Source: Paraphysomonas bandaiensis (lineage: Eukaryota; Protista; Chrysophyceae). From it: a stretch of 64,000 bases of DNA. The first letter of the stretch is position 1. Every line of letters begins with the position of its first letter. Under the pieces are notes generated by a model, which had not been told where the DNA came from, searched no databases, and saw nothing but the letters and a program-made list of their open reading frames with translations. Positions 1,929 to 63,449 of the stretch are shown here, in pieces. Location of the stretch: positions 118,564-182,563 of the forward strand of contig CBFFRP010000186.1 in assembly GCA_965644295.1 (NCBI GenBank), in the 5' to 3' direction. The translations under genes were made by a program, and so were the position numbers.

Positions 1929-2205
1929 TGCCCCATTCTGAGAGCATACCCTTGTGAAGTATAACGTATAGATTATTAATAAAAATCTCAGCGTATTCTT
2001 TGTGTGTCGGCATCAAGAAAACTCTATAGCCTATATGAGATTACGAGAAACCCCGCGCATTCTAGGGGAGGGAGGGGGGGCGGCCAATGTCACACTGGAC
2101 CTAAACTGAGTCATGCATGGTCACGAGAATCCCCGCGTAATCTTTGTTAGGTAATGATGGGAAGGTAGAAGGTACACATGGTCCTACTAGAATCTGCGCG
2201 AATTA
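1929..2205 (+). repeat. Dispersed repeat, copy 1 (near-identical to 5352-5645)
   Basis: TGCCCCATTCTGAGAGC...AGATTATTAATAAAAATCTCAGCG...GAATCTGCGCGAAT occurs in both copies; a diverged inverted relative lies at ~10790-10906. Confidence 0.85.
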
Positions 2206-2278: not shown

Positions 2279-2470
2279 CACACAAGAAGGACGGAAGGGA
2301 AGCCGGACGCTTGTGTCGCTTAGGCATTCTTCCTGGGCCAGAAGGGCCCTCCTATCGTAATAAAACATTCGTTTTATTACTCTTCCTTTCCACTCAGAGT
2401 TTATAAATATAATATAATAATTATCTTATATATAATAATATTAATAATACTATACTTTAAATAATAATAT
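2279..2470 (+). mobile_element. Isolated terminal fragment homologous to the left end of the virus-like element at 55551
   Basis: CACACA start, then GCTTAGGCATTCTTCCTG.GCCAGAA.GGC.CTC.TATCGTAATAAAAC..TCGTTTTATTACTCT and TATTAATAATACTATACTTTAAATAA, all shared with 55551-55760. Confidence 0.75.
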
Positions 2471-2755
2471 TTTTAAGTTATCCACTTTATACACCCAAAA
2501 AGTAACACAGACAACAACATGGATAATATTTTAAAAGATAATACATGTAGTGGACAAAGAATATGACTGGCTGTGAATGAATAAGTACCCAAAATGTTTC
2601 GACATTATTAATAGACAATTAAGGAGCGACGGCTACTTATTCTATATGAAAAAGGCTGCTGCTCCACACTTGTGTGTCAATATATTCGTTGATTTGCAGT
2701 AACGACTACTGAAGATTCAATATTGAAATCTCAAAAATATCCGCTACAACAAAAG

Positions 2756-5351: not shown

Positions 5352-5645
5352 TGCCCCATTCTGAGAGCGTACCCTAGTGAAGTATAAGTGTTGACTAAGC
5401 TAAGTAACGTATAGATTATTAATAAAAATCTCAGCGTATTCTTTGTGTGTCGGCATCAAGAAAACTCTATAGCTTATATGAGATTACGAGAAACCCCGCG
5501 CATTCTAGGGGAGGGAGGGGGGGCGGCCAATGTCACACTAGACCTAAACTGAGTCATGCATGGTCACGAGAATCCCCGCGTAATCTTTGTTAGGTAATGA
5601 TGGAAGGTAGAAGGTACACATGGTCCTACTAGAATCTGCGCGAAT
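5352..5645 (+). repeat. Dispersed repeat, copy 2 of 1929-2205
   Basis: Near-identical sequence with a small insertion (GTGTTGACTAAGCTAAGTAA). Confidence 0.85.
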
Positions 5646-7505: not shown

Positions 7506-7781
7506 TCCTCCCATTGTTAGGAACAATGCTATTTCCAGTAGGGTTGTAAGGATTGTAAAAAATGGGGGATTTTATTCTACAGGATTTTCCATATGATAGT
7601 GGTGATTTCCGAACCACGGGGGAATTAGGTCTACAACCCAACTATAACGTATTTTCCCATACCACTATAGAAACTCCTGCTTTTGGGGAATAGAAGTGCG
7701 TATTATATTAGAGCACAAGATCCAGTCGGTCCGTTCTGCTGAAGTACAAGATACACTGTATATGTGATGGTCCGATATAGT

Positions 7782-14968: not shown

Positions 14969-15475
14969 AGGTGATGTGGGTAGGATAGTCTTCTCACAAC
15001 ACTCTTCACTTAACTTCCTCTTCTTACTCTTTACTTCGCTACTTCTTAACTTTCAACTCAACTACGATATCAACTTTCACTATTATATCTAAAACTCCAT
15101 ATCCTTCTACCTATATCCCCATAGTTAATTCTAGAAGTGGTTTCCCAGCCATAAATAGCTAGTTTTCTACTTCCAGAAATAATCATATAGAAATCCCTTA
15201 ACATCCTGCTATCTACTCCTATATCATCCTACAGAATACCTACGTATACCATCATAATACTGTACGGGTTACCATGAACGTCCGTTACATCCGTATGTAC
15301 GGGTAGTTCCGGTACACTCCAACCCTATATCTGGCCTTAATACTCGTATCTTCTAATCTAATCATAACTACCATCTACATCTCATCTCATACTACAACCT
15401 ACATCACTTCATCTTATTCTTCAGCCATAACAACCTCCTAAATCACCCATACTTGTCATACCCAATTTTGCTACA
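14894..15475 (-). repeat. 5' LTR (582 bp)
   Basis: Paired LTR followed on the minus strand by a tRNA-like PBS. Confidence 0.93.
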
Positions 15476-22100: not shown

Positions 22101-25100
22101 CATACATACATACATACATACATACATACATACATACATACATACATACATACATACAAACATACATAAATAAGTAGAGTGTTATGAGGTCTCATGTGTG
22201 ATTTGTATTATTGTTTTATAGGGTGGCCGTACAGCTCTTCACGTGGCTATATCTAGAGGTCACAGTGATATATCAGAGTATCTTATATGGGCAGGAGCTG
22301 ATATTAATGTACGAGACAATGTAAGTAACCCCTCTATACATACATATATACTTAACTATATGGATATATGGTGATGCAGTGTGTCACTTGCTTTTATGAT
22401 GCTTCTTGTTATTTTTGCAGGAGGGAAGGACTCCTGTTGATGTGGCTAAGGATAGTGCGATGCGTGAGCTCATCAGAAACGCACATGTTAGTATGTGTAC
22501 TGTATGCTTCATCGTATTCTCAGAACCAGAGACATAACTTCACTGGAATCATATGTGTATTGTATAGGCTGAGAGGCAGAGACAGCAAGAGGAGGACGCT
22601 GCTACCGCTGCAGAGGTATGTGTGTAATGATGTAGTTTTATGATATTGATGCAGTTATATGGTATGATATGTTGGAGTGCCTTGACTGCGACCATATATG
22701 TATGTGTATGTTTGGCGGTGCTGTTAAGATGAGTAGCACCCACTTCTATATGTGCTCAAGCTTCCATATGTGCCGCAGATGATGAATTCGAACGAGGTGT
22801 TCGAACATAAGATGGATGGTATTATTAGAGCTGCTGAGAGGGGTGATATCAATGGTGTGAGGAGGTGTGTTGAGAGGGGCGATAACATACATGAACGAGA
22901 CGAGGTAACCCACACACATAAACACATACATTCATTCATACGTACATACATAAGTAGAGTGTTATGAGGGCTCATATGTGATAATTGTTATTGTTTTATA
23001 GAGTGGCCACACAGCTCTTCACTGGGCTGCCATTAGAGGTCACGGAGATGTAGCTGAGTATCTTATGGGAGCAGGAGCAGATACAAGAATACGAGACAAT
23101 GTAAGTAACCCTTCTATACATACATACATACATACATACATACATACATACATGCATACAGTGCTATGTTGGCTCATATGTGATTGTTATTATTGTTTTA
23201 TAGGATGGCCGTACATCTCTTCACTGGGCTGCCGTTAGAGGTCACAGTAATATATCAGAGTATCTTATGTTGGCAGGAGCAGATACTAATATACGAGACA
23301 ATGTAAGTAACCCCTCTATACATACATACGTGCAGTGTTATGAGGTCTCATGTGTGATTTGTATTTGTTTTATAGGGTGGCCGTACAGCTCTTCACGTGG
23401 CTATATCTAGAGGTCACAGAGATATATCAGAGTATCTTATGTGGGCAGGAGCTGATATTAATGTACGAGACAATGTAAGTAACTCCTCTGTACATACATA
23501 TATACTTAACCATATGGATATGTGGTGATGCAGTGTGTCACTTGCTTTTATAATGCTTCTTGTTACTTTTGCAGGAGGGAAGGACTCCTGTTGATGTGGC
23601 TAAGGATAATGCGATGCGTGAGCTCATCAGAAACGCACATGTTAGTATGTGTACTGTATGCTTCATCGTATTCTCAGAACCAGAGACATAACTTCACTGG
23701 AATCATATGTGTATTGTATAGGCTGAGAGGCAGAGACAGCAAGAGGAGGACGCTGCTACCGCTGCAGAGGTATGTATGTAATGATGTAGTTTTATGATAT
23801 TGATGCAGTTATATAGTATGATATGTTGGAGTGCCTTGACTGCGACCATATATGTATGTGTATGTTTGGCGGTGCTGTTAAGATGAGTAGCACCCACTTC
23901 TATATGTGCTCAAGCTTCCATATGTGTCACAGATGATGAATTCGAACGAGGTGTTCGAACATAAGATGGATGGTATTATTAGAGCTGCTGAGAGGGGTGA
24001 TATCAATGGTGTGAGGAGGTGTGTTGAGAGGGGCGATAACATACATGAACGAGACGAGGTAACCCACACACATAAACACATACATTCATTCATACGTACA
24101 TACATAAGTAGAGTGTTATGAGGGCTCATATGTGAGTTTTTGTATTGTTGTATAGAGTGGTGCTACAGCTCTTCACTGGACTGCCATTAGAGGTCACAGA
24201 GATGTAGCTGAGTATCTTATGGGAGCAGGAGCAGATACAAGAATACGAGACAATGTAAGTAACCCTTCTATACATACATACATACATACATACATGCATA
24301 CAGTGCTATGTTGGCTCATATGTGATTGTTATTATTGTTTTATAGGATGGCCGTACATCTCTTCACTGGGCTACCATTAGAGGTCACAGTGATATATCAG
24401 AGTATCTTATAAGGGCAGGAGCAGATACAACTATACGAGACAATGTAAGTAACTCCTCTAGACATACATAAATACGTGCAGTGTTATGAGGTCTCATATG
24501 TGATTGATATTATTATTTTATAGGATGGCCGTACAGCTCTTCACTGGGCTGCCATTAGAGGTCACGGAGAAATAGCTATGTGTCTTTTGAGAGCAAGAGC
24601 AGATACTAATATACGAGACAATGTAAGTAACTCCTCTATACATATACATACATACGTGCAGTGTTATGAGGTCTCATGTGTGATTTGTATTTGTTTTATA
24701 GGGTGGCCGTACAGCTCTTCACGTGGCTATATCTAGAGGTCACAGAGATATATCAGAGTATCTTATGTGGGCAGGAGCTGATATTAATGTACGAGACAAT
24801 GTAAGTAACTCCTCTGTACATACATATATACTTAACCATATGGATATGTGGTGATGCAGTGTGTCACTTGCTTTTATAATGCTTCTTGTTACTTTTGCAG
24901 GAGGGAAGGACTCCTGTTGATGTGGCTAAGGATAATGCGATGCGTGAGCTCATCAGAAACGCACATGTTAGTATGTGTACTGTATGCTTCATCGTATTCT
25001 CAGAACCAGAGACATAACTTCACTGGAATCATATGTGTATTGTATAGGCTGAGAGGCAGAGACAGCAAGAGGAGGACGCTGCTACCGCTGCAGAGGTATG

Positions 25101-28100
25101 TGTGTAATGATGTAGTTTTATGATATTGATGCAGTTATATGGTATGATATGTTGGAGTGCCTTGACTGCGACCATATATGTATGTGTATGTTTGGCGGTG
25201 CTGTTAAGATGAGTAGCACCCACTTCTATATGTGCTCAAGCTTCCATATGTGCCGCAGATGATGAATTCGAACGAGGTGTTCGAACATAAGATGGATGGT
25301 ATTATTAGAGCTGCTGAGAGGGGTGATATCAATGGTGTGAGGAGGTGTGTTGAGAGGGGCGATAACATACATGAACGAGACGAGGTAACCCACACACATA
25401 AACACATACATTCATTCATACGTACATACATAAGTAGAGTGTTATGAGGGCTCATATGTGATAATTGTTATTGTTTTATAGAGTGGCCACACAGCTCTTC
25501 ACTGGGCTGCCATTAGAGGTCACGGAGATGTAGCTGAGTATCTTATGGGAGCAGGAGCAGATACAAGAATACGAGACAATGTAAGTAACCCTTCTATACA
25601 TACATACATACATACATACATACATACATACATACATACATACATGCATACAGTGCTATGTTGGCTCATATGTGATTGTTATTATTGTTTTATAGGATGG
25701 CCGTACATCTCTTCACTGGGCTGCCGTTAGAGGTCACAGTAATATATCAGAGTATCTTATGTTGGCAGGAGCAGATACTAATATACGAGACAATGTAAGT
25801 AACCCCTCTATACATACATACGTGCAGTGTTATGAGGTCTCATGTGTGATTTGTATTTGTTTTATAGGGTGGCCGTACAGCTCTTCACGTGGCTATATCT
25901 AGAGGTCACAGAGATATATCAGAGTATCTTATGTGGGCAGGAGCTGATATTAATGTACGAGACAATGTAAGTAACTCCTCTGTACATACATATATACTTA
26001 ACCATATGGATATGTGGTGATGCAGTGTGTCACTTGCTTTTATAATGCTTCTTGTTACTTTTGCAGGAGGGAAGGACTCCTGTTGATGTGGCTAAGGATA
26101 ATGCGATGCGTGAGCTCATCAGAAACGCACATGTTAGTATGTGTACTGTATGCTTCATCGTATTCTCAGAACCAGAGACATAACTTCACTGGAATCATAT
26201 GTGTATTGTATAGGCTGAGAGGCAGAGACAGCAAGAGGAGGACGCTGCTACCGCTGCAGAGGTATGTATGTAATGATGTAGTTTTATGATATTGATGCAG
26301 TTATATAGTATGATATGTTGGAGTGCCTTGACTGCGACCATATATGTATGTGTATGTTTGGCGGTGCTGTTAAGATGAGTAGCACCCACTTCTATATGTG
26401 CTCAAGCTTCCATATGTGTCACAGATGATGAATTCGAACGAGGTGTTCGAACATAAGATGGATGGTATTATTAGAGCTGCTGAGAGGGGTGATATCAATG
26501 GTGTGAGGAGGTGTGTTGAGAGGGGCGATAACATACATGAACGAGACGAGGTAACCCACACACATAAACACATACATTCTCATTCATACGTACATACATA
26601 AGTAGAGTGTTATGAGGGCTCATATGTGAGTTTTTGTATTGTTGTATAGAGTGGTGCTACAGCTCTTCACTGGACTGCCATTAGAGGTCACAGAGATGTA
26701 GCTGAGTATCTTATGGGAGCAGGAGCAGATACAAGAATACGGGACAATGTAAGTAACCCCTCTATACATACATACCTACATAAAGTAGAGTGTTATGAGG
26801 GTTCATATGTTTTGATAATTGTTATTGTTTTATAGGATGGCCACACAGCTCTTCACTGGGCTACCATTAGAGGTCACGAAGATGTAGCTGAGTATCTTAT
26901 AAGGGCAGGAGCAGATACAACTATACGAGACAATGTACGTAACTCCTCTATACAAACATACATACATACATACATAAATAGAGTGTTATGAGGACTTTTA
27001 TGCAATTTGTATTATTGTTTTATAGGGTGGCCGTACAGCTCTTCACTGGGCTGCCATTAATGGTCACGAAGATGTAGCTGAGTATCTTTTGAGAGCAGGA
27101 GCAGATACAACTATACGAGACAATGTAAGTAACTCCTCTAGACATATACATACATACATACAAACATACATGAGTAGAGTGTTATGAGGGTTCAGATGTG
27201 ATTTTTATTATTGTTTTATAGGGTGGCCGTACAGCTCTTCACTGGGCTGTCTCTAATGGTTATAGAGATATAGCTATGCATCTTTTGGGAGAAGGAGCAG
27301 ATACAAGTATACGGGACAATGTAAGTAAATCCTCTATAGATACATACATACATATATACATACATACATAAAGTAGAGTGTTATGAGGGCTCGTATGTGA
27401 CTTGTATTATTGTTTTATAGGATGGGCGTACAGCTCTTCACTGGGCTGTCTCTAAGGGTTATAACGATATAGTTCAGTGTTTATTTTTTTGGGCAGGAGC
27501 AGATACAAGAATACGGGACAATGTAAGTAACCCCTCTATACATACATACCTACATAGAGTAGAGTGTCATGATGGCTCATATGTGATTTTTATTATTGTT
27601 TTATAGGATGGCCGTACAGCTCTTCACTGGGCTGCCATTAGAGGTCACGGAGATGTAGCAGAGTATCTTTTAAGAGATGGAGGAGATACTAATATACGAG
27701 ACAGTGTAAGTAACTCATACATACATACATACATACATACATAAGTTGAGTGTTATGAGGGCTCATATGTGATTTGTATTATTGTTTCATAGGATGGCCG
27801 AACAGCTCTTCATTGGGCTGCCATTAGAGGCTATAGAGATGTAGTTGAGTATCTTATGTTGGCAGTAGCAGATACTAATATACAAAACAATGTAAGTAAC
27901 CACTCTATACATACATACATAAATATATATATACGTGCAGTGTTATGAGGGCTCATATGTGATTGATATTATTATTTTATAGGATGGGCGTACAGCTCTT
28001 CACTGGGCTGCCATTAGAGGTCACGGAGAAATAGCTATGTGTCTTTTGAGAGCAAGAGCAGATACTAATATACGAGACAATGTAAGTAACTCCTCTATAC

Positions 28101-30730
28101 ATATACATACATACGTGCAGTGTTATGAGGTCTCATGTGTGATTTGTATTTGTTTTATAGGGTGGCCGTACAGCTCTTCACGTGGCTATATCTAGAGGTC
28201 ACAGAGATATATCAGAGTATCTTATGTGGGCAGGAGCTGATATTAATGTACGAGACAATGTAAGTAACTCCTCTGTACATACATATATACTTAACCATAT
28301 GGATATGTGGTGATGCAGTGTGTCACTTGCTTTTATAATGCTTCTTGTTACTTTTGCAGGAGGGAAGGACTCCTGTTGATGTGGCTAAGGATAATGCGAT
28401 GCGTGAGCTCATCAGAAACGCACATGTTAGTATGTGTACTGTATGCTTCATCGTATTCTCAGAACCAGAGACATAACTTCACTGGAATCATATGTGTATT
28501 GTATAGGCTGAGAGGCAGAGACAGCAAGAGGAGGACGCTGCTACCGCTGCAGAGGTATGTGTGTAATGATGTAGTTTTATGATATTGATGCAGTTATATG
28601 GTATGATATGTTGGAGTGCCTTGACTGCGACCATATATGTATGTGTATGTTTGGCGGTGCTGTTAAGATGAGTAGCACCCACTTCTATATGTGCTCAAGC
28701 TTCCATATGTGCCGCAGATGATGAATTCGAACGAGGTGTTCGAACATAAGATGGATGGTATTATTAGAGCTGCTGAGAGGGGTGATATCAATGGTGTGAG
28801 GAGGTGTGTTGAGAGGGGCGATAACATACATGAACGAGACGAGGTAACCCACACACATAAACACATACATTACCATTCATACGTACATACATAAGTAGAG
28901 TGTTATGAGGGTTCATATGTTTTGATAATTGTTATTGTTTTATAGAGTGGCCACACAGCTCTTCACTGGGCTGCCATTAGAGGTCACGGAGATGTAGCTG
29001 AGTATCTTATGGGAGAAGGAGCAGATACAAATATACGAGACAATGTAAGTAACCCCTCTATACATACATACATACATACATACATACATAGGTTGAGTGT
29101 TATGAGAGCTCGTATGTGATTTGTATTATTGTTTTATAGGATGGCCGTACAGCTCTTCGCTATGCTGTTTCTTATGGTTATAGAGATATAGCTATGTATC
29201 TTATGAGAGCAGGAGCAGATACTAATATACGAGACAATGTAAGTAACTCCTCCGTACATACATACATACATACATACATATATGAATGCAGTGCTATGCG
29301 GGCTCCTATGTGATAATTGTTATTGTTTCATAGAGTGACCGCACAGCTCTTCACTGGGCTGCGATTAGAGGTCACGGAGATATAGCTGAGTATCTTTTGA
29401 GAGAAGGAGCAGATACTAATATACGATACAGTGTAAGTAACTCCTCTATACATACATACATACATACATACATACATACATACATACATACATACATACA
29501 TACAACATACATGCATACATACATACATAAGTAGAGTGTTATGAGGGCTCATGTGTGATTTTATTATTGTTTTATAGGATGGGCGTACAGCTCTTCACTA
29601 TGCTGTCTCTAATGGTTATAGAGATATAGCTATGTATCTTATGAGAGCAGGAGCAGACACTAATATACGAGGCAATGTAAGTAACTCCTCTATACATACT
29701 AACATACATACATACATACATACATACATACATACATGAATGCAGTGCTATGTGGGATCATATGTGATTGTTATTATTGTTTTATAGGATGGGCTTACAG
29801 CTCTTCACTGGGCTGTCTCTAGAGGTTATAGAGATATAGCTATGTATCTTTTGAGAGCAGGAGCAGACACTAATATACGAGGCAATGTAAGTAACTCCGC
29901 TATACATACAAACATACATACATACATACATACATGAATGCAGTGCTATGTGGGATCATATGTGATTGTTATTATTGTTTTATAGGATGGGCGTACAGCT
30001 CTTCACTGGGCTGTCTCTAGAGGTTATAGAGATATAGCTATGTATCTTCTGAGAGCAGGAGCAGATACAAGAATACGAGACAATGTAAGTAACCCCTCTA
30101 TACATACATACATGAATCATACATAAGTAGAGTGTTATGAGGGCTCATATGTGATTGTTATTATTGTTTCACAGAATGGTGAGACAGCTCTTCACTGGGC
30201 TGCCATTAGAGGTCACAGAGATGTATCTGAGTATCTTATGGGAGAAGGAGCAGATACTAATATACGAGACAATGTAAGTAACTCCTCTATACATACATAC
30301 ATACATACATACATACATACGTGCAGTGTTATGAGGTCTCATGTGTAATTTGTATTTGTTTTATAGGGTGGCCGTACAGCTCTTCACGTGGCTATATCTA
30401 GAGGTCACAGAGATATATCAGAGTATCTTATAAGGGCAGGAGCAGATATTAATGTACGAGACAATGTAAGTAACCCCTCTAGACATATGGATATGTGGTG
30501 ATGCAGTGTGTCACTTCCTTTTATGATGCTTCTTGTTATTTTTGCAGGAGGGAAGGACTCCTGTTGATGTGGCTAAGGATAATGCGATGCGTGAGCTCAT
30601 CAGAAACGCACATGTTAGTATGTGTACTGTATGCTTCATCGTATTCTCAGAACCAGAGACATAACTTCACTGGAATCATATGTGTATTGTATAGGCTGAG
30701 AGGCAGAGACAGCAAGATGACTTCAATTGA
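19176..30730 (+). CDS. Modular ankyrin-repeat locus: 7 tandem N-cap/ANKn/C-cap/linker modules, 40 single-repeat exons (about 1865 aa if spliced as one mRNA)
   Basis: Modules 19176-21034, 21198-22615, 22779-23769, 23933-25095, 25259-26261, 26425-28554 and 28718-30730 carry 8, 5, 3, 4, 3, 9 and 8 internal exons. Each exon is 99 nt (one is 102 nt), phase 0, consensus [33 protein letters not shown]. No stops seen in the exons; terminal exon [11 protein letters not shown]. Confidence 0.92.
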
Positions 30731-35298: not shown

Positions 35299-37035
35299 TC
35301 ATGCGCATGTCTCCAGAAACCTGACTGCGCTTAGCTCTTCGTTGTCCCGTGATTTGAACGAATGCCTGGTTATCTTTGCCTTGGCACACCATTTACACAG
35401 GGGTTTCTTGCAACTCTTCTCCTTTGCCTTCGAAAGGTGATGTCGTTGTAGTCCTGATCCTCTGAATAACATGTGTCGGTGAGCTTCTAATAACTTCGAT
35501 TTCGAGACATGTCCAGTACGCTCATGTAAGCGATCCAACGCATCTTGTCCTGTATTATCCGACAAATTTACCTCCTCCATCTGATTGCACATAGACACAT
35601 TTGGCAGATTTAACACCTCCATCAAGTCCACATACGGCATTCCTCCATGCTCATCGTACTCTCCAGTCAACACCTCGTTTCCAGAGTCCAATTCCACGAT
35701 TTTAGGCTTTCGAAGCAGTTGTAATCCGTATCCCATTGATCTCAGCATTCCTCCTGACACAATGTTCTTCACCGCTTCTTCACTAACTCTGATGTCTCTC
35801 CATTCCCCGAATGTACCAGCCCCCTGTGTCTCCAATTGAGAACCCTTTCTAGTTAGTTGGATTGCCCCAAACTCAGGAGTAAATGACTCCAGTGCAATTT
35901 TATCCTTTACTATAAACAGTCTTTTACTTGCACAACTGTCCAGATATACACGAGGTTCTTCCGACGTATCCACCGATAGCAAAACCTCTTCTCCAAACAT
36001 ATTCGCTTCATCATCCGACGACTCTCCGTCGTTGACGTATTTCTTCCATTCTGTCTCGAATTTCCTGTTCGATTTTCGAGGATTCTCATTATCCGGGTTT
36101 TTTATGTTCTTCCGTTTTTTCGACTTGCACTGTCGGGCTTTATGACTAAAATCTCCACAGATATGACAACCAGTATAATCCTTTGATCCTGGCTGCTGCA
36201 CACTCTTCGAAGCCTTTTCCTTTGTCTTCCCTTTTCTTTTGAACTTATCCATTTTTCTTTGTCGTTCCTTAGCATAACAATTCGCTGCTACGTGTCCCTT
36301 CTTCCGACAAAATGAACAAACCACTGGCTCCTTCGACGCCGTAAAATTGATCTCTTCAGATTTGTCTCCCTTTAGTTTCTTCAGCTGCGTCATAGCCTCG
36401 TCATACTCTTCACAAGCCTCTTTCACCGAATCAAATGTAGTTGTTGCTTTAGGCATCATCGCTACCGACATCCATAAATCATGTAATTCCTCTATCTGCA
36501 GCGCTGCTTTTATCTTTGCTAATTTACTTGCCTCTGTCTGCGGTTGTCCCAATTTTATGAGCTTCTGGATTATACCGTTCAGTCGATCTACCCCAACAGA
36601 CACCTTTTCCCCCGGCCTTATTTTGAACGAATGGTATTCTGCCGTAGTCTTCTCCAATACAGTCCCAATCTCGCCTCTGAACCTATCAACCAGTGTCTGA
36701 AGGAGCTCACTGGATAACACCTCCTTAGCAGGATCATCAGCAGGTAAAATTGCCTTCCCCTCCAAATATTGATTGGCTACCTCCAACACATCAGGGTCAT
36801 GCTCGCAAGCCTCCCAAATAGTACTAACACAGGTATCATTACGCTCTCTCCATGACTCTAAATTCCTTCCTCCGGCTGGCGGGTCCTCCAAGCCAAGATG
36901 GTTTCGGTTTTTCTTCATTAGATGCATCTTGATTTTTCTCGCTGAATAGTCTGCTTGGTTCTTGTCAAACCGTAGCTTCTTGTCATCTTCCCCATCCCTA
37001 CAACTAGCATTCGCTACCATAACAGAAGTTGACAT
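35299..37035 (-). mobile_element. Ty1/Copia gag-protease-GAG-pre-integrase ORF, truncated at the integrase
   Basis: Two CCHC knuckles (CSFCRKKGHVAANC, CHICGDFSHKARQC), protease VYLDSCAS, LHERTGH...CKWCAKAK. Confidence 0.9.
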
Positions 37036-37817
37036 TATTTGCTAAGGTTTACTATTCTCAACTGATAAGATGAAATTATAAACATTACATGATAAAGAAC
37101 CTAAGTTGTGTTCGATGTGTTCAACACCATTCATTTACTACTATAGTGTACAAACCACCCACTCAGTGATCGTATCCTGTATAGTCATCCACTTCTACTT
37201 CAGTTTCATACTACATAATATAATGTACTAATTACATATATATCTTTCGATCCTTGCATCTCACATAATACTGCACTCAATTGCAAGTATATAGAATCTT
37301 CAGATCTCAACATTTGGTATTTCATTGTATATGTGTGTTGTATTCACGCGTTAAGAGATATACGTGAATCAATGACTCCTAATAAGATCAATGCAACTTT
37401 TCTGCACATACTCTACTACTATTGTAATGAAATACACATACACGCCTATTGTATTGTTAAGTTTATATTTTGACCTAAAAATATGACGGTGATAGGACAA
37501 TGATATAGGCAACAGGCAATCGAGCACAGTGTTATAAGTGGACGGTATTGTCATAAGGAAACGACCTTAACATTAGCAAGGGTACTTCATCATCACTATT
37601 ATTATCCGCAATTACCTCAAAGCAATTATATCAAAATTCTTAAGCGAACCGAGCAATAACCATATTGGCATTTACATATCTAAGAAAAATCACCGACATC
37701 CAATTGATAGCTACTGATTCACCATTGAAAAATCTTAAACCTTGTATACTTTATAGGAAATATCTGTGAGCTGAGTGCACGTCACGAGACAACTGAGAAA
37801 TGAGTGCGAGTTAAGCT

Positions 37818-53844: not shown

Positions 53845-55550
53845 ATGAAGAAGACAACGAACGACAAGCCAACAAGATTTGCAAGATTCGGCAAGAAACC
53901 GAGCACCGATAGACCAGAACATGTACCGACTTTAAGATACGGTGCCAACTCGAACTTCGCCACATTCAAACAGAGGCTTGTAGTGGTGGGCATGCAAAAG
54001 TACGGTGATCTTGCACGCCTAGTAGAGCTGGACAAATATTATGAGCCCGATGCGATAAACCCAGAGGATTTTGATTTGGAAGACGACCCCTATGGAGTTA
54101 ACCTCGACCTGATGAAGGACAAGACCAAGACCAGAGGGAGATTAATAGACAAGATGCGGAACGATAGATCGGCATTCTACTCATTCATGGTAGACCATCT
54201 GAGCCACGAATCAATGGATGCAGTCAAGCTATTAGATGAATACGAGCTCATGAACAGGACTAAGGATCCTCTACTACTATGGCTGGCTATCAAACAAACC
54301 CACAAAGTATCCACTAACTCCAGCGTAAGTACAGTGGTACGAGCAGAAGCGAGGAAGAGGTACAAAGACGCTAAACAGGGAGCATATGAGAGTATAGTTA
54401 CTTATAAGGAGAGGTTTGATCATCTATTGGAAGCCTACAAAGACATGAACAACGCGGAAATGAATGAAGAGGACATCGCGATGGATTTCTTCGAAGGGCT
54501 GGACGACACGAGATATGGCGAGTTCAAAACTAGCTATCTCAACGATCTAACAATGGGAACGCAAACAGCACCTACGCATGTAAATGAAATATATACTAAA
54601 GCATCAAAATATCTAACGCCGAAGAGAGCAACGAGAGCAGGCGGCGGATCCGCATTCGTGAGCAAATCGAAGTCTGACAAAGGCAAGAAATCAGCAGATA
54701 GCGATGATACACCAGAGCAGCAACAAGGGAACGACACGAAGTCGCACAACAGCAAACGTGGTCAGAAAAAAAGGCAGCTCATATGTTGGGGCTGCGGTGA
54801 GCCAGGCCACAGAATGAACGAATGCCCAGACAGTAGCCAAGAATCAGAAAACAAGCACTGCACGACAACAATGTTGAACGCCTTCACGTCAGGAAGCGAG
54901 CCATTCCAATGGTACGAAGTATTACTCGACAATCAGGCGGATGTCTCGGTAGTACACCCAGGACTACTGAACAATGTAAGACCGGCGTCCAGAGGATGCA
55001 CCGTGGCGGGATTATCGGGACACGCACTGGAACTACCGAATGTAGGCGAGCTAGACCAATTCTTCACCTGTAAGACAGCAGATGAGCTAAGGGCAAGCGT
55101 ACTATGTCAGGCGGACGTAGAAGACATATATGAAGTGACATATAGGCAGGGAGAGTCTTTCACTGTCCACTTACCTGACAGTGATTTGACTTTCTATCGA
55201 AAGAACAAGATGTATGTGGCCGACATGCGCGACTGGGCGACGGCCAAAGTCAACGTAACGACTGTAGCGGAGCGCGAAGCCCAATATTCGAAAGTAGAAG
55301 TCGCGAGAGCGCGAGAAGCACGAGACCTGATCCGAAACTCGGGCTTCGACTCGGAGAGAGATGCTGTGCAGCTAGTGAGCGACGGAAACGTTACAGGGGT
55401 GCGACTTACCCCGAGTGATATCAGAAGAGCTTTTGACATATATGGGAGACCGTTCGAAGCGGTGAGAGGCAAGCAGACGAATAAGAAAGTCAGCCGGCAA
55501 TACGCGGATCCGGAACTGAAGGCAGAACAGCAGAAGGAGCAAAGGCTGTA
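53845..55550 (+). mobile_element. Ty1/Copia-like gag-protease ORF interrupted at the start of integrase
   Basis: Gag, CWGCGEPGHRMNEC knuckle, protease VLLDNQADVS, DIRRAFDIYG...VRGK pre-integrase motif; coding character ends abruptly at 55550. Confidence 0.85.
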
Positions 55551-55904
55551 CACACACAGAGAGGCGGAGGGCCGAGGGGTCGCTCTAAGCCGCTTAGGCA
55601 TTCTTCCTGAGCCAGAAAGGCTCTCGTATCGTAATAAAACTTCGTTTTATTACTCTTTCCTTTTCACTCAATCTTTCTTCCTTTTCACTCTATCTTTAAA
55701 TATAATTATTATGGCCTATATAATTATATTAATAATACTATACTTTAAATAAAAATTAATTACTTTATATAATATTAAATAATTATCTTATAATAATATT
55801 AATAATACTATACTTTAAATAAATATTAATAATACTATACTTTAAATAAAAATTAATTACTTTATATAATATTAAATAATTATCTTATAATAAAATAAAA
55901 ATAT

Positions 55905-56170
55905 GATTTTGGCATTTTGGCTTTCTGGCATTTTGGCTTTTATGAAAATTAGAAAAAGTTATAAAATAAAATTTATTATATAGTTTATGTTATAAAAATC
56001 CAGTGCCATAATGCCAGTTGTGGTGGTGATGATTTTGGCTTTCTGGCATTTTGGCTTTCTGGCATTTTGGCTTTTATGAAAATTAGAAAAAGTTATAAAA
56101 TAAAATTTATTATATAGTTTATGTTATAAAAATCCAGTGCCATAATGCCAGTTGTGGTGGTGATGATGAT
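55905..56170. repeat. 134-bp tandem duplication with (TTTTGGC/TTTCTGGC) subrepeats
   Basis: TATGAAAATTAGAAAAAG... at 55941 and 56075. Confidence 0.9.
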
Positions 56171-56210
56171 GGTGGTGTTGTAACAGTGATGATGATCGTG
56201 ATGATGATGA

Positions 56211-56273
56211 TATATTGATATACGGGGACTCTGTGACACTTTAGTGTCACATAGTTCCCCGTATATCAATATA
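56211..56273. other. 63-nt near-perfect palindrome
   Basis: TATATTGATATACGGGGA/TCCCCGTATATCAATATA outer stem and TGTGACACT-TT-AGTGTCACA inner stem. Confidence 0.9.
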
Positions 56274-56598
56274 GACCCCTTCCATCAATTTATAGGCGAT
56301 AGCACTTACTGAAAATTGGTGGGAGCACATACCGAAAGAAGGGTGGTTCAGTCAAAGGTTTTGGCAAGTGTCAACAACTGCAAAGCGTTTTTCGAAGTCG
56401 ATTTCTAAGGTCCCTCACTTGTGAAATTAACCAACATTGAATAATCCGTGGGTGTGAATCCGCGTGACGTACGAGTGTCACAGAATCCCCTACCATAATT
56501 TGTGTGGGTGACACAGAATTACAAGATCGCAATTTACCCGGAAAATAAATTCGTTTAATTTCCTCGGATTATTTTCTTAACTATAATAAAAACAAAAT

Positions 56599-56958
56599 AT
56601 GGAAAATTTCATTGTGTACAAAATTACCGGAAAGCATACAAATAAAACATATTATGGAAAAACAATGCTACCTGTAGAAGAACGCCTTTCCCTTCATCTA
56701 TCATCTTATAGACACCACAAAGAGACATATTGTTTATCTCCCTATCTCCCAGTTTTTGATATAATTCGAGAAAATAATAATAGCGATATTAAAATTACAA
56801 CATTAACACCTGGTTCAACTAATTATTTCAATGCAACAGCAATCGAGAAACACTATATTGAACAAGATAAAAACTGTTGTAATAAGAATGGATCAGATTA
56901 TACCGTGGAGGAATATCTGATTGAATATTCAAAAAAACACAGTGAAATTAATAAATGA
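56599..56958 (+). CDS. Stand-alone GIY-YIG endonuclease, copy 1
   Basis: IVYKIT...KTYYGKT...EERLSLH...AIEKHYI...CCN follows the GIY-YIG pattern (Y, YxG, R, E, N). Confidence 0.8.
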   Translation: MENFIVYKITGKHTNKTYYGKTMLPVEERLSLHLSSYRHHKETYCLSPYLPVFDIIRENNNSDIKITTLTPGSTNYFNATAIEKHYIEQDKNCCNKNGSDYTVEEYLIEYSKKHSEINK

Positions 56959-57023
56959 AACGTGAGAAATATACCCGGAAAATAAATTCAGATTATTTTT
57001 TCTTAACTATAATAAAAACAAAT

Positions 57024-57443
57024 ATGAACAATTTCATTGTATACAAAATTACCGGAAAGCATACAAATAAAACATATTTTGGAAAAACATCGCTACCTGT
57101 AAAAAAGCGTCTTTCCCTTCATCTATCAGCTTATAGATTTTACAAAGAGTCATATGGTTTATCTTCTTATTTCTCAGTTTTTGATATATTTCGAGAAAGC
57201 AATGATCTTAAAAGCGATATTGAAATTACAATATTAACACCTGGTTTAAGTAATTACAATGCAGCAGCAATCGAGGATCACTATATTCAGCGAGATAAAA
57301 ACTGTTGTAATAAAAATAGATCAGGTTTTACCACGAGCAACATGAAGGAATATCAAAAAGATTATTGGGAAAAACATAAAAATAAAATTAATAAAATGAG
57401 ACGTGAGAAATATGCTCAAAATAAAAAATCTTGTGTACATTAA
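57024..57443 (+). CDS. Stand-alone GIY-YIG endonuclease, copy 2
   Basis: MNNFIVYKITGKHTNKTYFGKT...KKRLSLH...AIEDHYI...CCN with a basic helical tail KEYQKDYWEKHKNKI. Confidence 0.82.
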   Translation: MNNFIVYKITGKHTNKTYFGKTSLPVKKRLSLHLSAYRFYKESYGLSSYFSVFDIFRESNDLKSDIEITILTPGLSNYNAAAIEDHYIQRDKNCCNKNRSGFTTSNMKEYQKDYWEKHKNKINKMRREKYAQNKKSCVH

Positions 57444-57447
57444 AAAC

Positions 57448-57723
57448 ATGGAAAATAAAAAACGCGGACGTCCCATAAAATATAACTCCGAAGAAGAGCG
57501 AAAGCAAGCAAAGCGGATACAAGATCAACTTTCATATAAACGAAGAAAATCACAACAGAATGAAATTTTAGAAATATTATCTAATGATGGATCATCATCA
57601 TCGATTTATGAACCCTCGGAAACTGAAACACCAGTGTACACAAATACAGAAATCCGTCAAGAAGAGATAAAAATTGAAATTTACTCGGATAATTTTAATT
57701 TGTGTTTGAATATAAAGAAATAA
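57448..57723 (+). CDS. Small basic protein with an AT-hook-like KKRGRP motif
   Basis: MENKKRGRPIKYNSEEERKQAKRIQDQLSYKRRK. Confidence 0.65.
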   Translation: MENKKRGRPIKYNSEEERKQAKRIQDQLSYKRRKSQQNEILEILSNDGSSSSIYEPSETETPVYTNTEIRQEEIKIEIYSDNFNLCLNIKK

Positions 57724-57747
57724 ATATTAGGTATATTAAAAAGAAAA

Positions 57748-58056
57748 ATGTCTGAATCCTCCATCAACACCAACAACCTAACAACTCTCCCACAAACTGA
57801 GGAAGAATGGCGTAGAGCGATGACTGAATATGAACAAGCCAACGATTTGTTACCCCTCCCACGAACTCTTGAAGAAGCGTATATGCTACACGAAGCCTCT
57901 GAAAATGATTACAGTAATCTTATTGATGATTATGAAGATTACTTGAATGGATATGATGATGACTTCGATGAATCTGAGGTATCCGACGATGAAGAATTCC
58001 CACCTCGTGAAAATTCCCCGGTGTCAATTATAGATCATCCAAATCTTTTAGATTAA
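57748..58056 (+). CDS. Small acidic hypothetical protein
   Basis: 102-aa ORF preceded by the shared AT-rich motif. Confidence 0.6.
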   Translation: MSESSINTNNLTTLPQTEEEWRRAMTEYEQANDLLPLPRTLEEAYMLHEASENDYSNLIDDYEDYLNGYDDDFDESEVSDDEEFPPRENSPVSIIDHPNLLD

Positions 58057-58102
58057 TAAAAGAGTATAAAGAAAATAAAATATTAGTTATATTAAATAAA
58101 AA

Positions 58103-58294
58103 ATGTCTTATTTTTATGAAGATGAGTGGAACACATCCTCCGATGATGAATGGAATAATTATGAAGATTACATTGGGTTTAGAATAACTGATTCACCACC
58201 ACCACCACCACAAAAACGTAAACGAGCAACTAAAAACACTCGGAAGAATAAACAACATCAAACAAACAAAGATCAAAAACACCCAGATGTATAA
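58103..58294 (+). CDS. Hypothetical protein, probably truncated by the Gypsy LTR
   Basis: Same upstream motif as 57748; the last codons (GAT GTA TAA) overlap the inferred LTR edge TGTA at 58288. Confidence 0.5.
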   Translation: MSYFYEDEWNTSSDDEWNNYEDYIGFRITDSPPPPPQKRKRATKNTRKNKQHQTNKDQKHPDV

Positions 58295-59480
58295 ACAACT
58301 CAGGTCTTGCAACCTAAGATCACTGAAAAGATATGAAATGGTTGTTTATCGAAACAACAAAACAGAATGCTATAATAATAACTCTTTAAGAAACCAACAG
58401 CCAGAGATACGAGCTCCCAAGTATCCTGCAATCTAAAGCTCCCAATAGACAGATCAGTCAACCAACTATGTTAATTTCATAGAGAATTATTATTAAAACT
58501 AAGTTACAAGCGAAACAAAAGACAGACCCCTAGTCTAAAGACTCCTCCTCATACACAGGACATTGAATGCAACCACAACCGTACAATATGCTCATACATG
58601 TACTACACTACATACGATTCATATCCTACATCGTTTATAGTCAAAAACGCCCTGAAATACGCCTAAATAGGTCCTTTCCAAAAACCTCCGATTTTTGAGT
58701 CCCAAAACCCCAAAAATCCCCAATTTTTTGAGAATTGCAGAAAATCGCCGATTTTCGAGCCACAAACACCCAAAATGACAATATTCGAATCCACAAAAAT
58801 TGCAAGCACATTTCATGACAACGTGAAATACACAATCGCCAACTCATGCATAATACCGACAAAATGCAATCGGGTTCAAAAGCTTACAATCGAACGGTTA
58901 AATATCATTTCCTTGCAAGAGTGTGTACTTTAGACTGGACCATACAAATACACTCATATTCAGATCACTAACATGCCCATGACACCTCTGCATCTGCGTC
59001 CAATGGCACCTTACGAATTCCTCCCCATTCCGGAGAAAATCGATGGTGTGTGGCAATGGAAAAATAATCGTATATCATAGTCCGGAACGATGAGCAAGCA
59101 CATAGAGCTGTTCAAAACCATCAGAAAGCTTCTCATAATGATGAATGGACTACGAATATCGCACATGCGGTACCAATCAATGCTTCCTAACTCAAAACGC
59201 TATGACACCGACTACCGTATGGATATAGGCGTAAACCGACGGGTAGCAATCGCGTAGATCAAAGAAAACGTGTGTTCGAGGGTAAATCCTAGTTGTCTGT
59301 CGTCTTGCCCTCGTAATAATAATCTGTATCTCTTGTTGTCACCAATCTTATACAAAACAAGCTACATATACCCTACATATTATGTTATCATATCGTTATT
59401 GCATTAATATAGTTATCAATATTATTATGATGATGTCATTAAACGTGTTAAAGGGTGTTATAAAAGCCCACGGCTTTACA
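58288..59480 (-). repeat. Putative 3' LTR of the Gypsy element
   Basis: The minus strand begins TGTAAAG directly after the PPT GGGGGGGGAGAAAGGG (59484-59499); the far end ...TATACA at 58288 is inferred. Confidence 0.6.
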
Positions 59481-59510: not shown

Positions 59511-62500
59511 CTACTCCTGAATAATTTTGGGATAAGCCGCAGCGAGCGACGCATCAACCAAAATCATGCGAGCAGGGTCAAAATCCTTCTGGGACCCCCA
59601 ACAATAGACCAAATAGTTGTCGAAGGCATAGTTGGAACCGTTGAGATTAAAACGGGCGCTAATCTTGCGTTTGGAATTCTTGTGATACCAATGGGTGTAC
59701 GTGAATTCCATGACATACGCGGCCGTGGCATAATCCGGTAAACCAAGACTCTCGTACCACAGGTCACCGTAGAACCTGAGATCAACATAGACAGTATCTC
59801 CAACCGAAACTGTTGTGATATTCTCCTTCCTCATTGAAGAGATAAAACGCTTCGCAGTAAACGAGTCGTACGCGAGGTGTCGCAAGTAAGGCCTAGACTC
59901 ACAAAAATCGTAATATGCCTCACACTGAATATCCGGTGTCCATGGAATGTCCAAGATATCGCCGTCCGCATACTTCACCTTGAAGACCATCGTAGATTTG
60001 GTTCGTGAATCTCCCGTATATGAAAGAATTTCCTCCACCTTAAATTGTTCATGGTCTCGCATCGCCGCCTCAATAGCCGATTCCTTATCTCCGAAAAATG
60101 GCTCAAGATCAGAGACAAAGTATTCCCGAATTCCCCCGGTAAGAATATTACGAATTTGAACATCGTTCTTGTATTGTCGCACCACTTCGAAAGGACCCTT
60201 CATCCTCGAGGATAATTTCGGATGTGGTTTAGCACCAGCGTCGAACATAACAAAATCGCCTGGACAATACTGGTTTTGTTTGGCAGGATCCAAACCCGCT
60301 TCCGCTCGTTTCTCAACTAGAGACTTCTGGTAATCTGCTGATATCTGGCGAACTAGAGCTAAGTAATCGTTCAGCCTTTTCAACAGCTGATGAGACGGAT
60401 CATTGTCTCTCCCCTGGGCGGCCAGAAGATTCTTATAAATGGAATCCTGGGACCCAAACGTCAGTTCGAATGCAGAATACCCCGTCTCACTACTCTCGTG
60501 GGTATTCAGAATGAACATGATAGTGGCAAGTAACAGTTCGTCCTCCAAAACAGCATCGGCCTCAATTCGCTTGTCAAAACAAATAGCACGGATGTGACGA
60601 ACCACTTCCTTAATAATACGCTCACATCCATTGACATGCCTGTTGGCAATACTAAAAACATGACGAAGTCCTGACAACTTAACCAGTTCTGCGAAAAGTT
60701 CTGATTTGAGATCAGGACCCATATCTGATATAATCATATCCGTGAGCCCGTATGTACACCAGCACTTCCACACTGCTGTAGCTAAATTGATAGCTGTCAT
60801 TCCTTTCACCGCATATAGGTACACCAATTTCGTAAACAAATTAACCATGACCACAATATGCGTGTAACCAGATTTAGAAACAGGTGTAATAGCAACCGCG
60901 TCAATTCCCAAAGCACTCCTGGAATGAGGCGGTTTTAAATGTCTAGTAATAGGAATCAATCGCTGCTTCAGCTCTCGCCTATTCTTCTGACAGTTGATAC
61001 ATTCGTCCACGAAGTCTGCAACCACCTTGAAAGGCACGCCGTGTCCCGGAAATTGCTTACACAGACGCTTCCACGTCTCTTTCGCACCCCAGTGTCCTGC
61101 TTGCGCGTTGTGAACCTCTTTGATAGCCTGATAATAATCTATCCTCTGTACCTCCGTAGGCGGCGCGATCTCTTGAACGTCGTCCTCAAAATCATCCTTT
61201 TCAAAGATGTTATGCAGTGTCACGAAGTTCACTTCATCTGAGTCGAAATCGTCACTTTCGTCCACAAATCCGGACAAATACAGCAATCTTGACAAGCAAT
61301 CCGCAACCACATTGTTCTTCCCTGGGATATGACGAATCAAAAAGTCAAAATCCTGCAAATAAATTCTCCATCGAATTATCTTCGCAACTTCTGATGCCTC
61401 CATCCACACAAGGTTGTTGTGGTCCGTCTCGATTGTAAATTTCTTTCCTCTCAAATAAAACGAAAATTTCTTGACTGAATAGAATATACCAAAACCCTCC
61501 TTCTCAATAGTACACCACTTCAAGGCTTGCTCTGACAATTTCTTGGAACAGATAGCAATAGTTTGCTGTTGAATCGGACTAGACCCAGTTCCCTCAACAG
61601 TCTGGAAAAGAATGCCTGCCACTCCATAGTCACTAGCATCTGTCCTAAGTGTCCACTCAAGATCATAATTCGGATAAAACAAAGCACAAGACTGTTGCAA
61701 ACCACTCTTATAGTTTTCAAACTCCTGCCTATAATCGTGCTGCCATGTCGTTTCTTCCCAATTAAAACTACTCTTAGTCATATCCGTAAGATGTTTAACC
61801 AAATCTGAGTAATTCTGAACAAATGGAGCAAAGAATACTCCCAGACCCAACAAAGATCTAATCTTCTTACATCTATTTCCATTCTCTGGAAAAGGAATCT
61901 TCAATAAAGCCTCTTTCCTATCGTCCGTGAGCTCGAAACTATTGTGCCTTACCAAATAGCCAAAAAACTTGATCTCCCTAAATCCTAACCAGGTCTTTGC
62001 AAATTTCAACACAACTCCATGTTCAATGCATCTATCCAGGAAAATCTCCAGCTTCTTATACGCATCATCAAAATCATGTGCCAATAACAGAACATTATCA
62101 AATATACACAGCGCCCATTCCAGATCTCCAAACAATTTGACTACCGCTTCTTGCAACACACTAATCCCTGGAGACACTCCCTCCGGAAGGAATAAAGGCT
62201 GAAATTGGCCCCACGGTGTTTGAACTGACAATTTTTCAGATGTGTTCTCATGCAACCTGATCTGATGGAACGCATTCGTGAGGTCAATGTCCATAAATAT
62301 CTTATAGCCAATAATACGATCCAACTCATGTCTTACATTAGGAACTGTATAGTGTGGACTTGGAATGTACTTGTTGATTTGCACGTAATCCCCACAAATC
62401 CTAATAAAAGGTTTCGTGGCTTTTGGCGCGATCACCAAACAAGAAGCCCATGGCGACCTACTAGGAACATAGATGTAACCACACAGTCTCCTAAACTCCT

Positions 62501-63449
62501 TCTCCGCATCCTCATATAATCTAGGATTTACGGGTCTTGCCTTCGGCTTGATCCTAGGAGGCAAATTCTCAGCGAACTTGATGTTCAACGGATCCACTCC
62601 TTTTATACCTTCCCACCGCTCTGGAACAAATACCTCTACTCCCTTAGTCCTCAATAACTCCAGCACCGGTCGCGCTGCTGAGAACTCTGGAGACACGTGC
62701 TCACCAAACATATCCTCGAACTCGCTCAAAGCTTCCTCTCTAGTTTTTCCAAGAAAACTTGAGGCAAATCCGAACTGCGAAGGGTCCGGAACATCCAATT
62801 CTTCAGGTGCTACCTCCCTACTACTGTCACACCACGGCTGCAATAATTCTTCAACCGCATTCAACAACAAATCATCCTCGGTAACATCGTCCTCACGCCT
62901 TTTAATAAAACTTACTTCTGATTCAATTCGTTCAATAGTCCTTCCTTTAAGCATAAATAGAAAATAATCCCATAGATCCTTAACGATAGCCGGAAGTCCA
63001 ATAATAATATCGTTGCTACCCATATCAGCAACAATGAAATCCCCGTCATATAACACGAACTCTCCCTTGGAGTCTTCTCTCTCAAACCTCAATTTTAATT
63101 TCACTACAAAACTACACTTCATTCTCGACGTTTTATCGGCAAATCCTATAACTGTTTCTTTTTTTATGACTTTGTTTTCACACACATGATTTCTAAACGT
63201 CTCAAACAAATCCTTGGAAATGAAGTTAGATGTTAGGGCTCCAGTGTCGAACAATATTCCACGCACAGATATTATATAGTTATCATCACATACAATGCTT
63301 CCCCCAGAATGAGCCAATGTCAAGTCTTTTCGTTCTCGCGTATTACAGACATTCATCAAATTTCTGAGGAAAACTCGACTAACAGTCTCAGGATCATTCA
63401 AACCGTACAATATTTCTTCGTGATCCTGCGAACCATTAGCCTCGCACAT
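59511..63449 (-). mobile_element. Ty3/Gypsy pol (PR-RT-RNaseH-INT-chromodomain-like), intact 1312-aa ORF
   Basis: LFDTGA; IDLTNAFHQ, LPEG, CIFDNVL; TDASDYG, EKE, TDH, ADCLSR; HxxxGHWG...CINC, ISDMG, NGCER; FKVEEILSY...FKVKYADG...PW. Confidence 0.95.

What the first reader, a model, noticed from the sequence alone, without database searches (positions are those of the whole stretch)
55551..58294. Virus-like AT-rich gene cassette nested between two retrotransposons
Composition switches abruptly inside a Copia ORF to about 1 kb of structured non-coding DNA. Five tightly packed, intronless, co-oriented ORFs follow (two GIY-YIG, a KKRGRP protein, two acidic proteins), unlike the intron-rich host genes. 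Stand-alone GIY-YIG genes and long repeat-containing termini are typical of Polinton-like viruses, virophages and NCLDV. Inference: the left end of an endogenous DNA virus or novel linear element, inserted in a Copia and later hit by a Gypsy; the remainder should lie beyond the window.
Basis: partly seen in the sequence, partly recalled or inferred. Interest (0 to 1): 0.78.

Follow-up and report, generated by a model that had tools for sequence, protein, structure and literature searches.

The report
Virus end wedged between two retrotransposons
This is one end of a mobile DNA element with five tightly packed virus-like genes, which jumped into one retrotransposon and was later hit by another; it is likely a small DNA virus integrated in a marine single-celled eukaryote, a known and common kind of insert, although its capsid genes lie outside the sequence that could be read.

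Summary
A 31% GC block (55553-58289) interrupts a Copia-like ORF. Public contigs show the uninterrupted Copia, the same terminus (5'-CACACAG) joined to other flanks, and the element running on past 58289 without the Gypsy. Two intact GIY-YIG genes fold best like the mavirus nuclease. The three best-matching relatives in viral contigs lie in 15-17 kb contigs with polinton-like or virophage genes. All five ORFs carry one upstream motif, TAYAWTAAAWA, found once more in 64 kb. The segment 56214-56519 has about twice the depth of the ORFs and ends at one branch point, a hint of a ~970-bp terminal inverted repeat (TIR) with an internal 63-bp palindrome. Its outer ~600 bp is far more abundant, and a solo copy lies at 2279-2490. 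Best reading: left arm of an endogenous polinton-like virus or virophage (0.55; about 0.72 including the variant whose end is the palindrome). No capsid, ATPase, polymerase, integrase, right end or target-site duplication could be seen. New member of a known kind. A small capsid-less element with many miniature derivatives is not excluded.

The parts
53845..55552 (+). Copia-like gag-protease-(pre)integrase ORF, broken just before what is likely the first Asp of the integrase core (context: the target)
   Evidence: ORF; weak zf-CCHC hit; uninterrupted alleles continue past the junction (loose ends at 55553 and 55558)
55553..55559 (+). Left terminus 5'-CACACAG (uncertain by a few bases, 55550-55555)
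   Evidence: Other flanks join at 55549, 55552 and 55553 (table 7); the copy at 2279 starts CACACAA
55553..56210 (.). Outer, high-copy part of the presumed TIR: small hairpins at 55609-55623 and 55631-55653, AT-rich array 55719-55901, 134-bp duplication 55910-56167, GAT tract
   Evidence: depth at 55905 is 116/307/103/24 against about 5-12 on ORF contigs in X8/X9/X11/X13
56211..56273 (.). 63-bp near-perfect palindrome (18-bp perfect outer arms, two mismatches); likely a replication or recombination signal
56474..56523 (.). Two further copies of the palindrome's core motif (56474-56490, 56508-56519), then the presumed inner TIR boundary at about 56519-56523
   Evidence: Inverted match I21, motif positions; 4 of 4 runs have a contig ending at 56519
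56599..56958 (+). GIY-YIG nuclease 1, 119 aa; Y7, Y18, G20, R29, H33, E83, N95 kept; motif at 56582
   Evidence: Pfam PF01541 E 6.6e-5
57024..57443 (+). GIY-YIG nuclease 2, 139 aa, tandem duplicate of nuclease 1 with a basic C-terminal helix; E84 and N96 kept; motif at 57008
   Evidence: Pfam E 1.3e-4; model pLDDT 89; best fold match is the mavirus GIY-YIG, E 1.8e-8
57448..57723 (+). 91-aa protein with a KKRGRP (AT-hook-like) basic N-terminus, probably DNA-binding; motif at 57436
   Evidence: no Pfam or PHROG hit; Atlas result weak, recognition 2044
57748..58056 (+). 102-aa acidic protein, orphan; motif at 57732
   Evidence: 7 cluster members, all 102 aa; no family
58103..58289 (+). ORF5, likely a paralogue of the acidic protein, cut at codon 63 by the Gypsy; motif at 58088
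   Evidence: The 88-aa relative P0184 ends in the same C-terminal motif as ORF4; shared 38-bp upstream repeat D14
58290..59480 (-). 3' LTR of a Gypsy element inserted into ORF5 (context)
   Evidence: Loose ends at 58290; polypurine tract next to 59480
59511..63449 (-). Gypsy pol (RT, RNase H, integrase) (context)
2279..2490 (+). Solo, diverged copy of the terminus (78% over 167 nt) with no inverted partner in the window; one hairpin stem is kept through a two-sided change

Best explanation
The block is likely the left arm of a small integrated DNA virus of the polinton-like or virophage kind, which inserted into a Copia-like retrotransposon and was later interrupted by a Gypsy retrotransposon. 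Shown: it is mobile (one terminus, several flanks), it disrupted the Copia, it continues beyond 58289 in other copies, and it carries two intact GIY-YIG genes plus three small genes that share one upstream motif. Inferred: 55553-~56523 is a TIR present at both ends; an integrase or tyrosine recombinase encoded further right inserted it; the palindrome and its repeated core motif are protein-binding sites for excision or replication; the AT-rich motif is a promoter, probably read by a co-infecting giant virus, as in mavirus; the nucleases are free-standing homing-type accessory genes that grew by tandem duplication; and the abundant copies of the outer terminus are deleted derivatives or sister subtypes moved in trans.
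For: GIY-YIG affinity: the nearest Atlas clusters are 100% viral, commonest Preplasmiviricota, though phylum is known for only 2-5 members each. The best fold match is the mavirus protein. A profile of the subfamily hit 14 of 83 fetched loci; the three best lie in 15-17 kb contigs carrying pPolB plus lipase (L004, E 1.9e-22), an SF3 helicase DUF5906 (L021, E 3.8e-17), or a weak A32-like ATPase with a tandem GIY-YIG pair (L008). Motif upstream of 5 of 5 ORFs, 1 other site on both strands of 64 kb, 0 of 1000 shuffles reach 5. TIR hint: the 56214-56519 contig has depth 18.0, 20.2, 14.9, 17.4 against ORF contigs mostly 5-12 in X8, X9, X11, X13 and ends at 56519 in 4 of 4; 1266 against 622-1001 in X5. 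Its length matches EMALE TIRs (0.2-2.3 kb, median 0.9 kb; PMC8547959). Palindrome internal to the TIR: the X13 contig starts at 56180, where a unitig would start if the palindrome is joined to the GAT array, and the X11 contig keeps the doubled depth over 702 nt, 396 nt past the palindrome. ORF2 and ORF4 variants lie on ENA contigs of 5.8-7.3 kb, so several kb more exist. Low GC, stand-alone GIY-YIG genes and Gypsy insertions are reported for endogenous PLVs.
Against: No hallmark gene (capsid, penton, ATPase, pPolB, integrase), right end or TSD was seen. GIY-YIG genes move freely: fold matches ranked 2-13 include giant-virus and phage proteins, and sequence identity to all outside relatives is only about 24-46%. 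The viral loci were fetched with a relative (P0055), not with the window protein, which itself found nothing in viral, metagenome, genome or phage collections. The tool warns that contig depth is not copy number; some ORF contigs are as deep as the 'TIR' contig (19.2 in X8, 15.1 and 13.4 in X9), and X1 and X12 show no clear doubling. The motif was fitted to these same five sites, and only three are independent. The longest contigs cluster at 6.6-7.3 kb, which could mean an element too small for a full virus (14-40 kb, PMC12220804). In X5, X8 and X9 the contig starts at 56209-56213, which also fits an end at the palindrome. dN/dS between the two nucleases is about 1 (0.14/0.16 and 0.14/0.12, 99 codons), so no purifying selection between them is shown.
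Confidence: 0.55

Rival explanations
1. Same kind of virus, but its true end is the palindrome at 56211. The stretch 55553-56210 is then a separate high-copy non-autonomous host element into whose GAT tract the virus inserted, giving four nested layers; the hairpin would prime replication after excision.
For: Terminal palindromes next to the TSD are reported in Halocafeteria virophages and one PLV subtype. Copy number changes sharply at the palindrome. Contigs begin at 56209-56213 in X5, X8 and X9. The copy at 2279 has no palindrome and no inverted partner.
Against: X13's contig starts at 56180 with no branch at the palindrome edge; X11's contig keeps doubled depth across 702 nt, so both ends seem to share sequence outside the palindrome. 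Repeat slippage at the GAT/AT junction explains the 56209-56213 starts as well.
Confidence: 0.17
2. A capsid-less linear element of about 9-10 kb with long TIRs (transpoviron-like or an internally deleted virus) that replicates or integrates with the help of a virus and has spawned many miniature derivatives.
For: The longest contigs with these genes cluster at 6582, 6752, 6964 and 7308 nt, as if capped by a right TIR. Truncated EMALEs with TIRs exist, down to 5.5 kb. Complete pPolB elements without structural genes are reported. The outer terminus is far more abundant than the genes.
Against: Contig ends may mark any internal repeat or a coverage drop (5758, 2212 and shorter also occur). The neighbours of related nucleases are full-size small viruses.
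Confidence: 0.15
3. A cut-and-paste DNA transposon with long, internally repetitive TIRs that captured a viral gene cassette.
For: A CAC start recalls Transib, Chapaev and CACTA ends (recalled, not tested); many non-autonomous copies are typical of such transposons.
Against: The end is CACAC, not CACTA/G. The AT-rich, intronless, tightly packed genes with one shared upstream motif look like a viral transcription unit. No transposase is seen in 2.7 kb.
Confidence: 0.08
4. A fragment of an endogenous giant virus (NCLDV).
For: Faunusvirus and Klosneuvirus GIY-YIG proteins rank 2, 5 and 6 in the fold search.
Against: A discrete mobile terminus with several flanks and an apparent ~1 kb TIR; host retroelements directly on both sides.
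Confidence: 0.05

Closest known systems
Endogenous mavirus-like elements (EMALEs) of Cafeteria burkhardae (PMC8547959)
   Same: Low-GC insert, TIR of about 0.9 kb, type-specific upstream motifs, retrotransposons inserted inside, some truncated yet TIR-flanked copies; the mavirus GIY-YIG is the best fold match.
   Different: The motif is TAYAWTAAAWA, not TCTA; the nuclease lacks the zinc ribbon fused to MV06; the invader is a Gypsy, not Ngaro; no virophage capsid was seen.
Endogenous PLVs of protists (PMC10120064, PMC12220804) and PgVV/Gezel-14T (10.1101/2022.07.28.501842)
   Same: Stand-alone GIY-YIG genes (two in PgVV), co-oriented ORFs, TIRs built of repeated units, GC shift, Ty3/Gypsy insertions.
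   Different: No AAAATTGA-type motif defines these genes; the two nucleases here are recent tandem duplicates; MCP type, replicase and integrase are unknown.
Palindrome-ended virophages and PLV subtype 4 of Halocafeteria seosinensis (10.64898/2026.07.28.741278)
   Same: A long palindrome (52 nt there, 63 here) within the TIR.
   Different: There it abuts the TSD; here it lies 658 bp inside the apparent end.
Transpovirons and other capsid-less linear elements
   Same: Possible small size and long TIRs (size about 7 kb recalled).
   Different: No SF1 helicase or pPolB could be looked for; this element is integrated in a eukaryote genome.

Membership tests
GIY-YIG nuclease superfamily | Fold and catalytic set Tyr, Tyr, Gly, Arg, His, Glu, Asn | tested here: met
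   Pfam; invariant columns Y7 Y18 G20 R29 H33 E84 N96; kept in both copies; I-TevI matches
Polinton-like viruses / virophages | Double-jelly-roll major capsid protein and penton | not testable with these tools
   They would lie beyond the Gypsy; no genome held, genome index gave no close copy
Polinton-like viruses / virophages | A32-type packaging ATPase | not testable with these tools
   As above
Polinton-like viruses / virophages | Integrase (rve or tyrosine recombinase) and replicase (pPolB or primase-helicase) | not testable with these tools
Polinton-like viruses / virophages | Terminal inverted repeats of hundreds of bp | tested here: inconclusive
   About twice the depth and a common contig end at 56519 in 4 of 4 runs; the second end was never seen directly; X1 and X12 unclear
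Polinton-like viruses / virophages | 4-6 bp target-site duplication | not testable with these tools
   The right junction is outside the window
Polinton-like viruses / virophages | Length 14-40 kb | tested here: inconclusive
   Only a lower bound: the genes sit on contigs up to 7308 nt
Polinton-like viruses / virophages | GC shift from the host, dense intronless genes, shared upstream motif (typical, not defining) | tested here: met
Halocafeteria-type palindrome-ended elements | Palindrome at the extreme end, next to the TSD | tested here: inconclusive
   658 bp inside the mobile terminus in the window; X11 and X13 argue internal, X5, X8 and X9 are ambiguous
CACTA transposons | Terminus CACTA/CACTG (recalled) | tested here: not met
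   The terminus reads CACACAG
Transpovirons | pPolB-SF1 helicase fusion, no capsid | not testable with these tools

The most novel reading that the evidence does not exclude
A capsid-less, 9-10 kb, virus-derived linear element integrated in a marine protist genome, with ~1 kb TIRs holding an internal palindrome origin, expressed from a giant-virus-type promoter, carrying an expanding pair of nucleases, and mobilising a much larger family of miniature copies that keep only the terminus: a MITE-like family driven by a virus-derived element.
Probability: 0.15. Interest if true: 0.7.

Novelty: new member of a known kind. Interest (0 to 1): 0.36.

Why it matters
Endogenous polinton-like viruses and virophages are common in protist genomes and often nested with retrotransposons, so the main reading adds one more family. 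What is useful is the detail: a defined terminus, a likely TIR with an internal palindrome and repeated core motif, a clean candidate promoter that could point to a helper giant virus, and a terminus roughly ten times more abundant than the genes. If the last reflects miniature derivatives moved by the virus, it would show such viruses seeding host repeat families. Two searches for this listed no paper that, by title or abstract start, describes it for PLVs, but the library lacks most subscription papers, and non-autonomous Polintons are recalled from the older literature.

Tried and rejected
No whole genome is held. The genome index answered once with AT-rich low-complexity fungal matches only, rejected; its other calls did not complete. 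The window's GIY-YIG 2 found nothing in viral contigs, metagenome contigs, genome contigs or GenBank phages. Terminal and palindrome DNA patterns gave 0 matches in viral contigs and metagenome contigs. The acidic ORF gave nothing in genome contigs and three tailed-phage loci by a chance acidic match, rejected. P0166 found nothing in viral contigs. No longer form of ORF5 was found (weak evidence). Rfam: 0 matches in 55400-58400. PHROG: 0 of 5 element proteins. The Atlas result for the KKRGRP protein is below the recognition threshold, a lead only. Ordinary host genes: rejected on GC3, lack of introns, mobility and absence of named cellular homologues. A Helitron reading of the terminus was considered; the end does not fit the recalled CTRR rule. 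In one search, 69 of 83 loci had no hit to the GIY-YIG profile (most matched P0055 only through its charged tail) and were dropped; 4 of the 14 hits were annotated (39 of 42 ORFs, three overlapping ones left out), and L009 gave no family.

Full report
1. Observation. A Copia-like ORF starts at 53845 (weak zinc knuckle) at 48% GC. At about 55553 the sequence turns AT-rich (31% GC to 58287). About 1 kb of non-coding DNA follows, with small hairpins, an AT-rich array, a 134-bp duplication, a GAT tract and a 63-bp palindrome at 56211-56273. Then come five co-oriented intronless ORFs. The first two are GIY-YIG nucleases, the other three have no family. A Gypsy LTR begins at 58290 and its pol is at 59511-63449 on the minus strand.

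2. The block is a mobile insert. No genome was held, so I used public runs: 20 of 24 listed rows hold the stretch or part of it, 13 hold half or more, under four organism labels and marine metagenomes (one may be the source sample). I laid 7 of these runs. Uninterrupted Copia alleles continue past the junction in X1, X8, X9, X11, X12 and X13; one allele shows the Asp codon directly after the break. Three loose-end rows show other flanks joining at 55549, 55552 and 55553, which puts the terminus at 5'-CACACAG. Contigs of X5, X8, X9 and X11 run 56 nt past 58289 without the Gypsy. So the order is Copia, then element, then Gypsy. Variants of ORF2 and ORF4 lie on ENA contigs of matching lengths, 7308, 6752 and 6582 nt, and also 6964 and 5758. 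The window holds only about 1.3 kb from ORF2 to the Gypsy, so several further kb exist. That they are element sequence is inferred: a high-copy Gypsy would break a contig.

3. The terminus. In X8, X9, X11 and X13 one contig spans 56214-56519 at depth 18.0, 20.2, 14.9 and 17.4, while ORF contigs are mostly 5-12, and all four end at 56519. X5 gives 1266 against 622-1001. The simplest reading is a repeat present twice per element, a TIR ending near 56523. Against it: the tool warns that depth is not copy number, a few ORF contigs are as deep (19.2 in X8), and X1 and X12 are unclear. The outer part is much deeper (116, 307, 103 and 24 at 55905), so many more loci carry the outer terminus than carry the genes. 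One such copy is in the window at 2279-2490 (78% over 167 nt); it keeps two hairpins, one through a two-sided change, and has no inverted partner in the window. This leaves two readings: one TIR from 55553 with an internal palindrome, or a virus ending at the palindrome inside a separate repeat. X13 (contig start 56180) and X11 (doubled depth over 702 nt) favour the first; X5, X8 and X9 (starts 56209-56213) fit both.

4. The genes. Both nucleases keep the catalytic residues invariant across 30 aligned sequences, the two window proteins included. The model is confident (pLDDT 89) and matches the mavirus GIY-YIG best (E 1.8e-8), then giant-virus and phage proteins. The search of representatives gave 251 hits, none close except the paralogue. 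The nearest Atlas clusters are viral. Using the relative P0055 I fetched 80 viral loci; a profile of the nuclease domain hit 14 of the 83 loci held. Of the four best, L004 encodes a pPolB and a lipase, L021 an SF3 helicase, L008 a weak A32-like ATPase and its own tandem GIY-YIG pair, and L009 gave no family. I take the first three as polinton-like or virophage contigs; no capsid was confirmed in them by any search. GIY1/GIY2 and ORF4/ORF5 are tandem duplications that include their upstream DNA; an X9 contig skips 57724-58130, removing ORF4. dN/dS between the nucleases is about 1 on 99 codons. The motif TAYAWTAAAWA lies 12-17 nt before all five start codons and at one other site in the window; shuffles give 0.11 on average. 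It was fitted after the fact and only three sites are independent, but the per-site chance rate is about 0.02.

5. Mechanism. Most likely a small DNA virus integrated through its TIRs by its own integrase, silent until a helper giant virus reads its promoters, as described for mavirus and related elements. The palindrome and the repeated core motif would be binding sites for excision or replication proteins. The nucleases are accessory homing-type genes. The Gypsy hit a duplicated small gene, which may or may not disable this copy. Only mobility, nesting order, gene content and the shared motif are shown; the rest is inference from known families.

6. Comparison. PLVs are 14-40 kb, TIR-flanked, and carry mostly stand-alone GIY-YIG genes (PMC12220804). 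A Gypsy inside a PLV and Gypsy elements near inserts are reported (PMC10120064). EMALE TIRs have a median of 0.9 kb (PMC8547959). Terminal palindromes are reported in Halocafeteria. Membership cannot be confirmed, because every defining gene lies outside reach; no defining feature was tested and failed.

7. Papers. I saw search passages only, not whole texts, of PMC10120064, PMC12220804, 10.64898/2026.07.28.741278 (61), 10.1101/2022.07.28.501842 (62), PMC8547959, PMC3671162, 10.1101/2025.10.09.676808 (82), PMC13215967 and 10.64898/2026.10.13.758929 (99). Others were seen only in listings. No supplements or figures were read; the EMALE and Halocafeteria promoter-motif figures and tables could show whether this motif is already known. 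Transposon end rules, transpoviron size and non-autonomous Polintons are recalled.

8. Verdict. A real, well-supported nested insertion; most likely a new family of an already known kind of endogenous virus. Interest 0.36. The open novel reading, a small capsid-less element with a swarm of miniature derivatives, has about 15% probability.

Noticed in passing
window 1929-2203 and 5352-5645: A 92% identical direct repeat of about 290 bp encloses the solo terminus copy (2279-2490) and an intronless 501-aa collagen-like ORF (2756-4261, minus). It may be a non-autonomous LTR-type element carrying a collagen-like gene; the PHROG tail-fibre hits are driven by the repeats.
   Followed up: partly
   Followed up: partly
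window 19270-30600: A long gene of near-identical ~180-200 bp exon-intron units, with larger blocks repeated at 97-100% identity; looks like an ankyrin-type repeat gene expanding by intron-containing duplications.
   Followed up: no
window 11585-15052 (minus): A 1155-aa stop-free frame with internal GPSGGPG-type repeats, a cysteine/histidine cluster and a protease-like motif near the end; probably the gag-protease of another LTR element.
   Followed up: no
window 35299-37041 (minus) and 6476-7516 (minus): A second Copia-like gag-pol fragment and a Gypsy integrase fragment; the window is dense in retroelements.
   Followed up: no
window 57525-57688, 57037-57192, 57724-58130 in Logan contigs: Diverged variants (about 86-89% identity) and a deletion variant lacking ORF4 show more than one subfamily of the element.
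   Followed up: partly
L008:9980-11027: A viral contig with its own tandem pair of same-subfamily GIY-YIG genes and a third copy at 2158-2829.
   Followed up: partly
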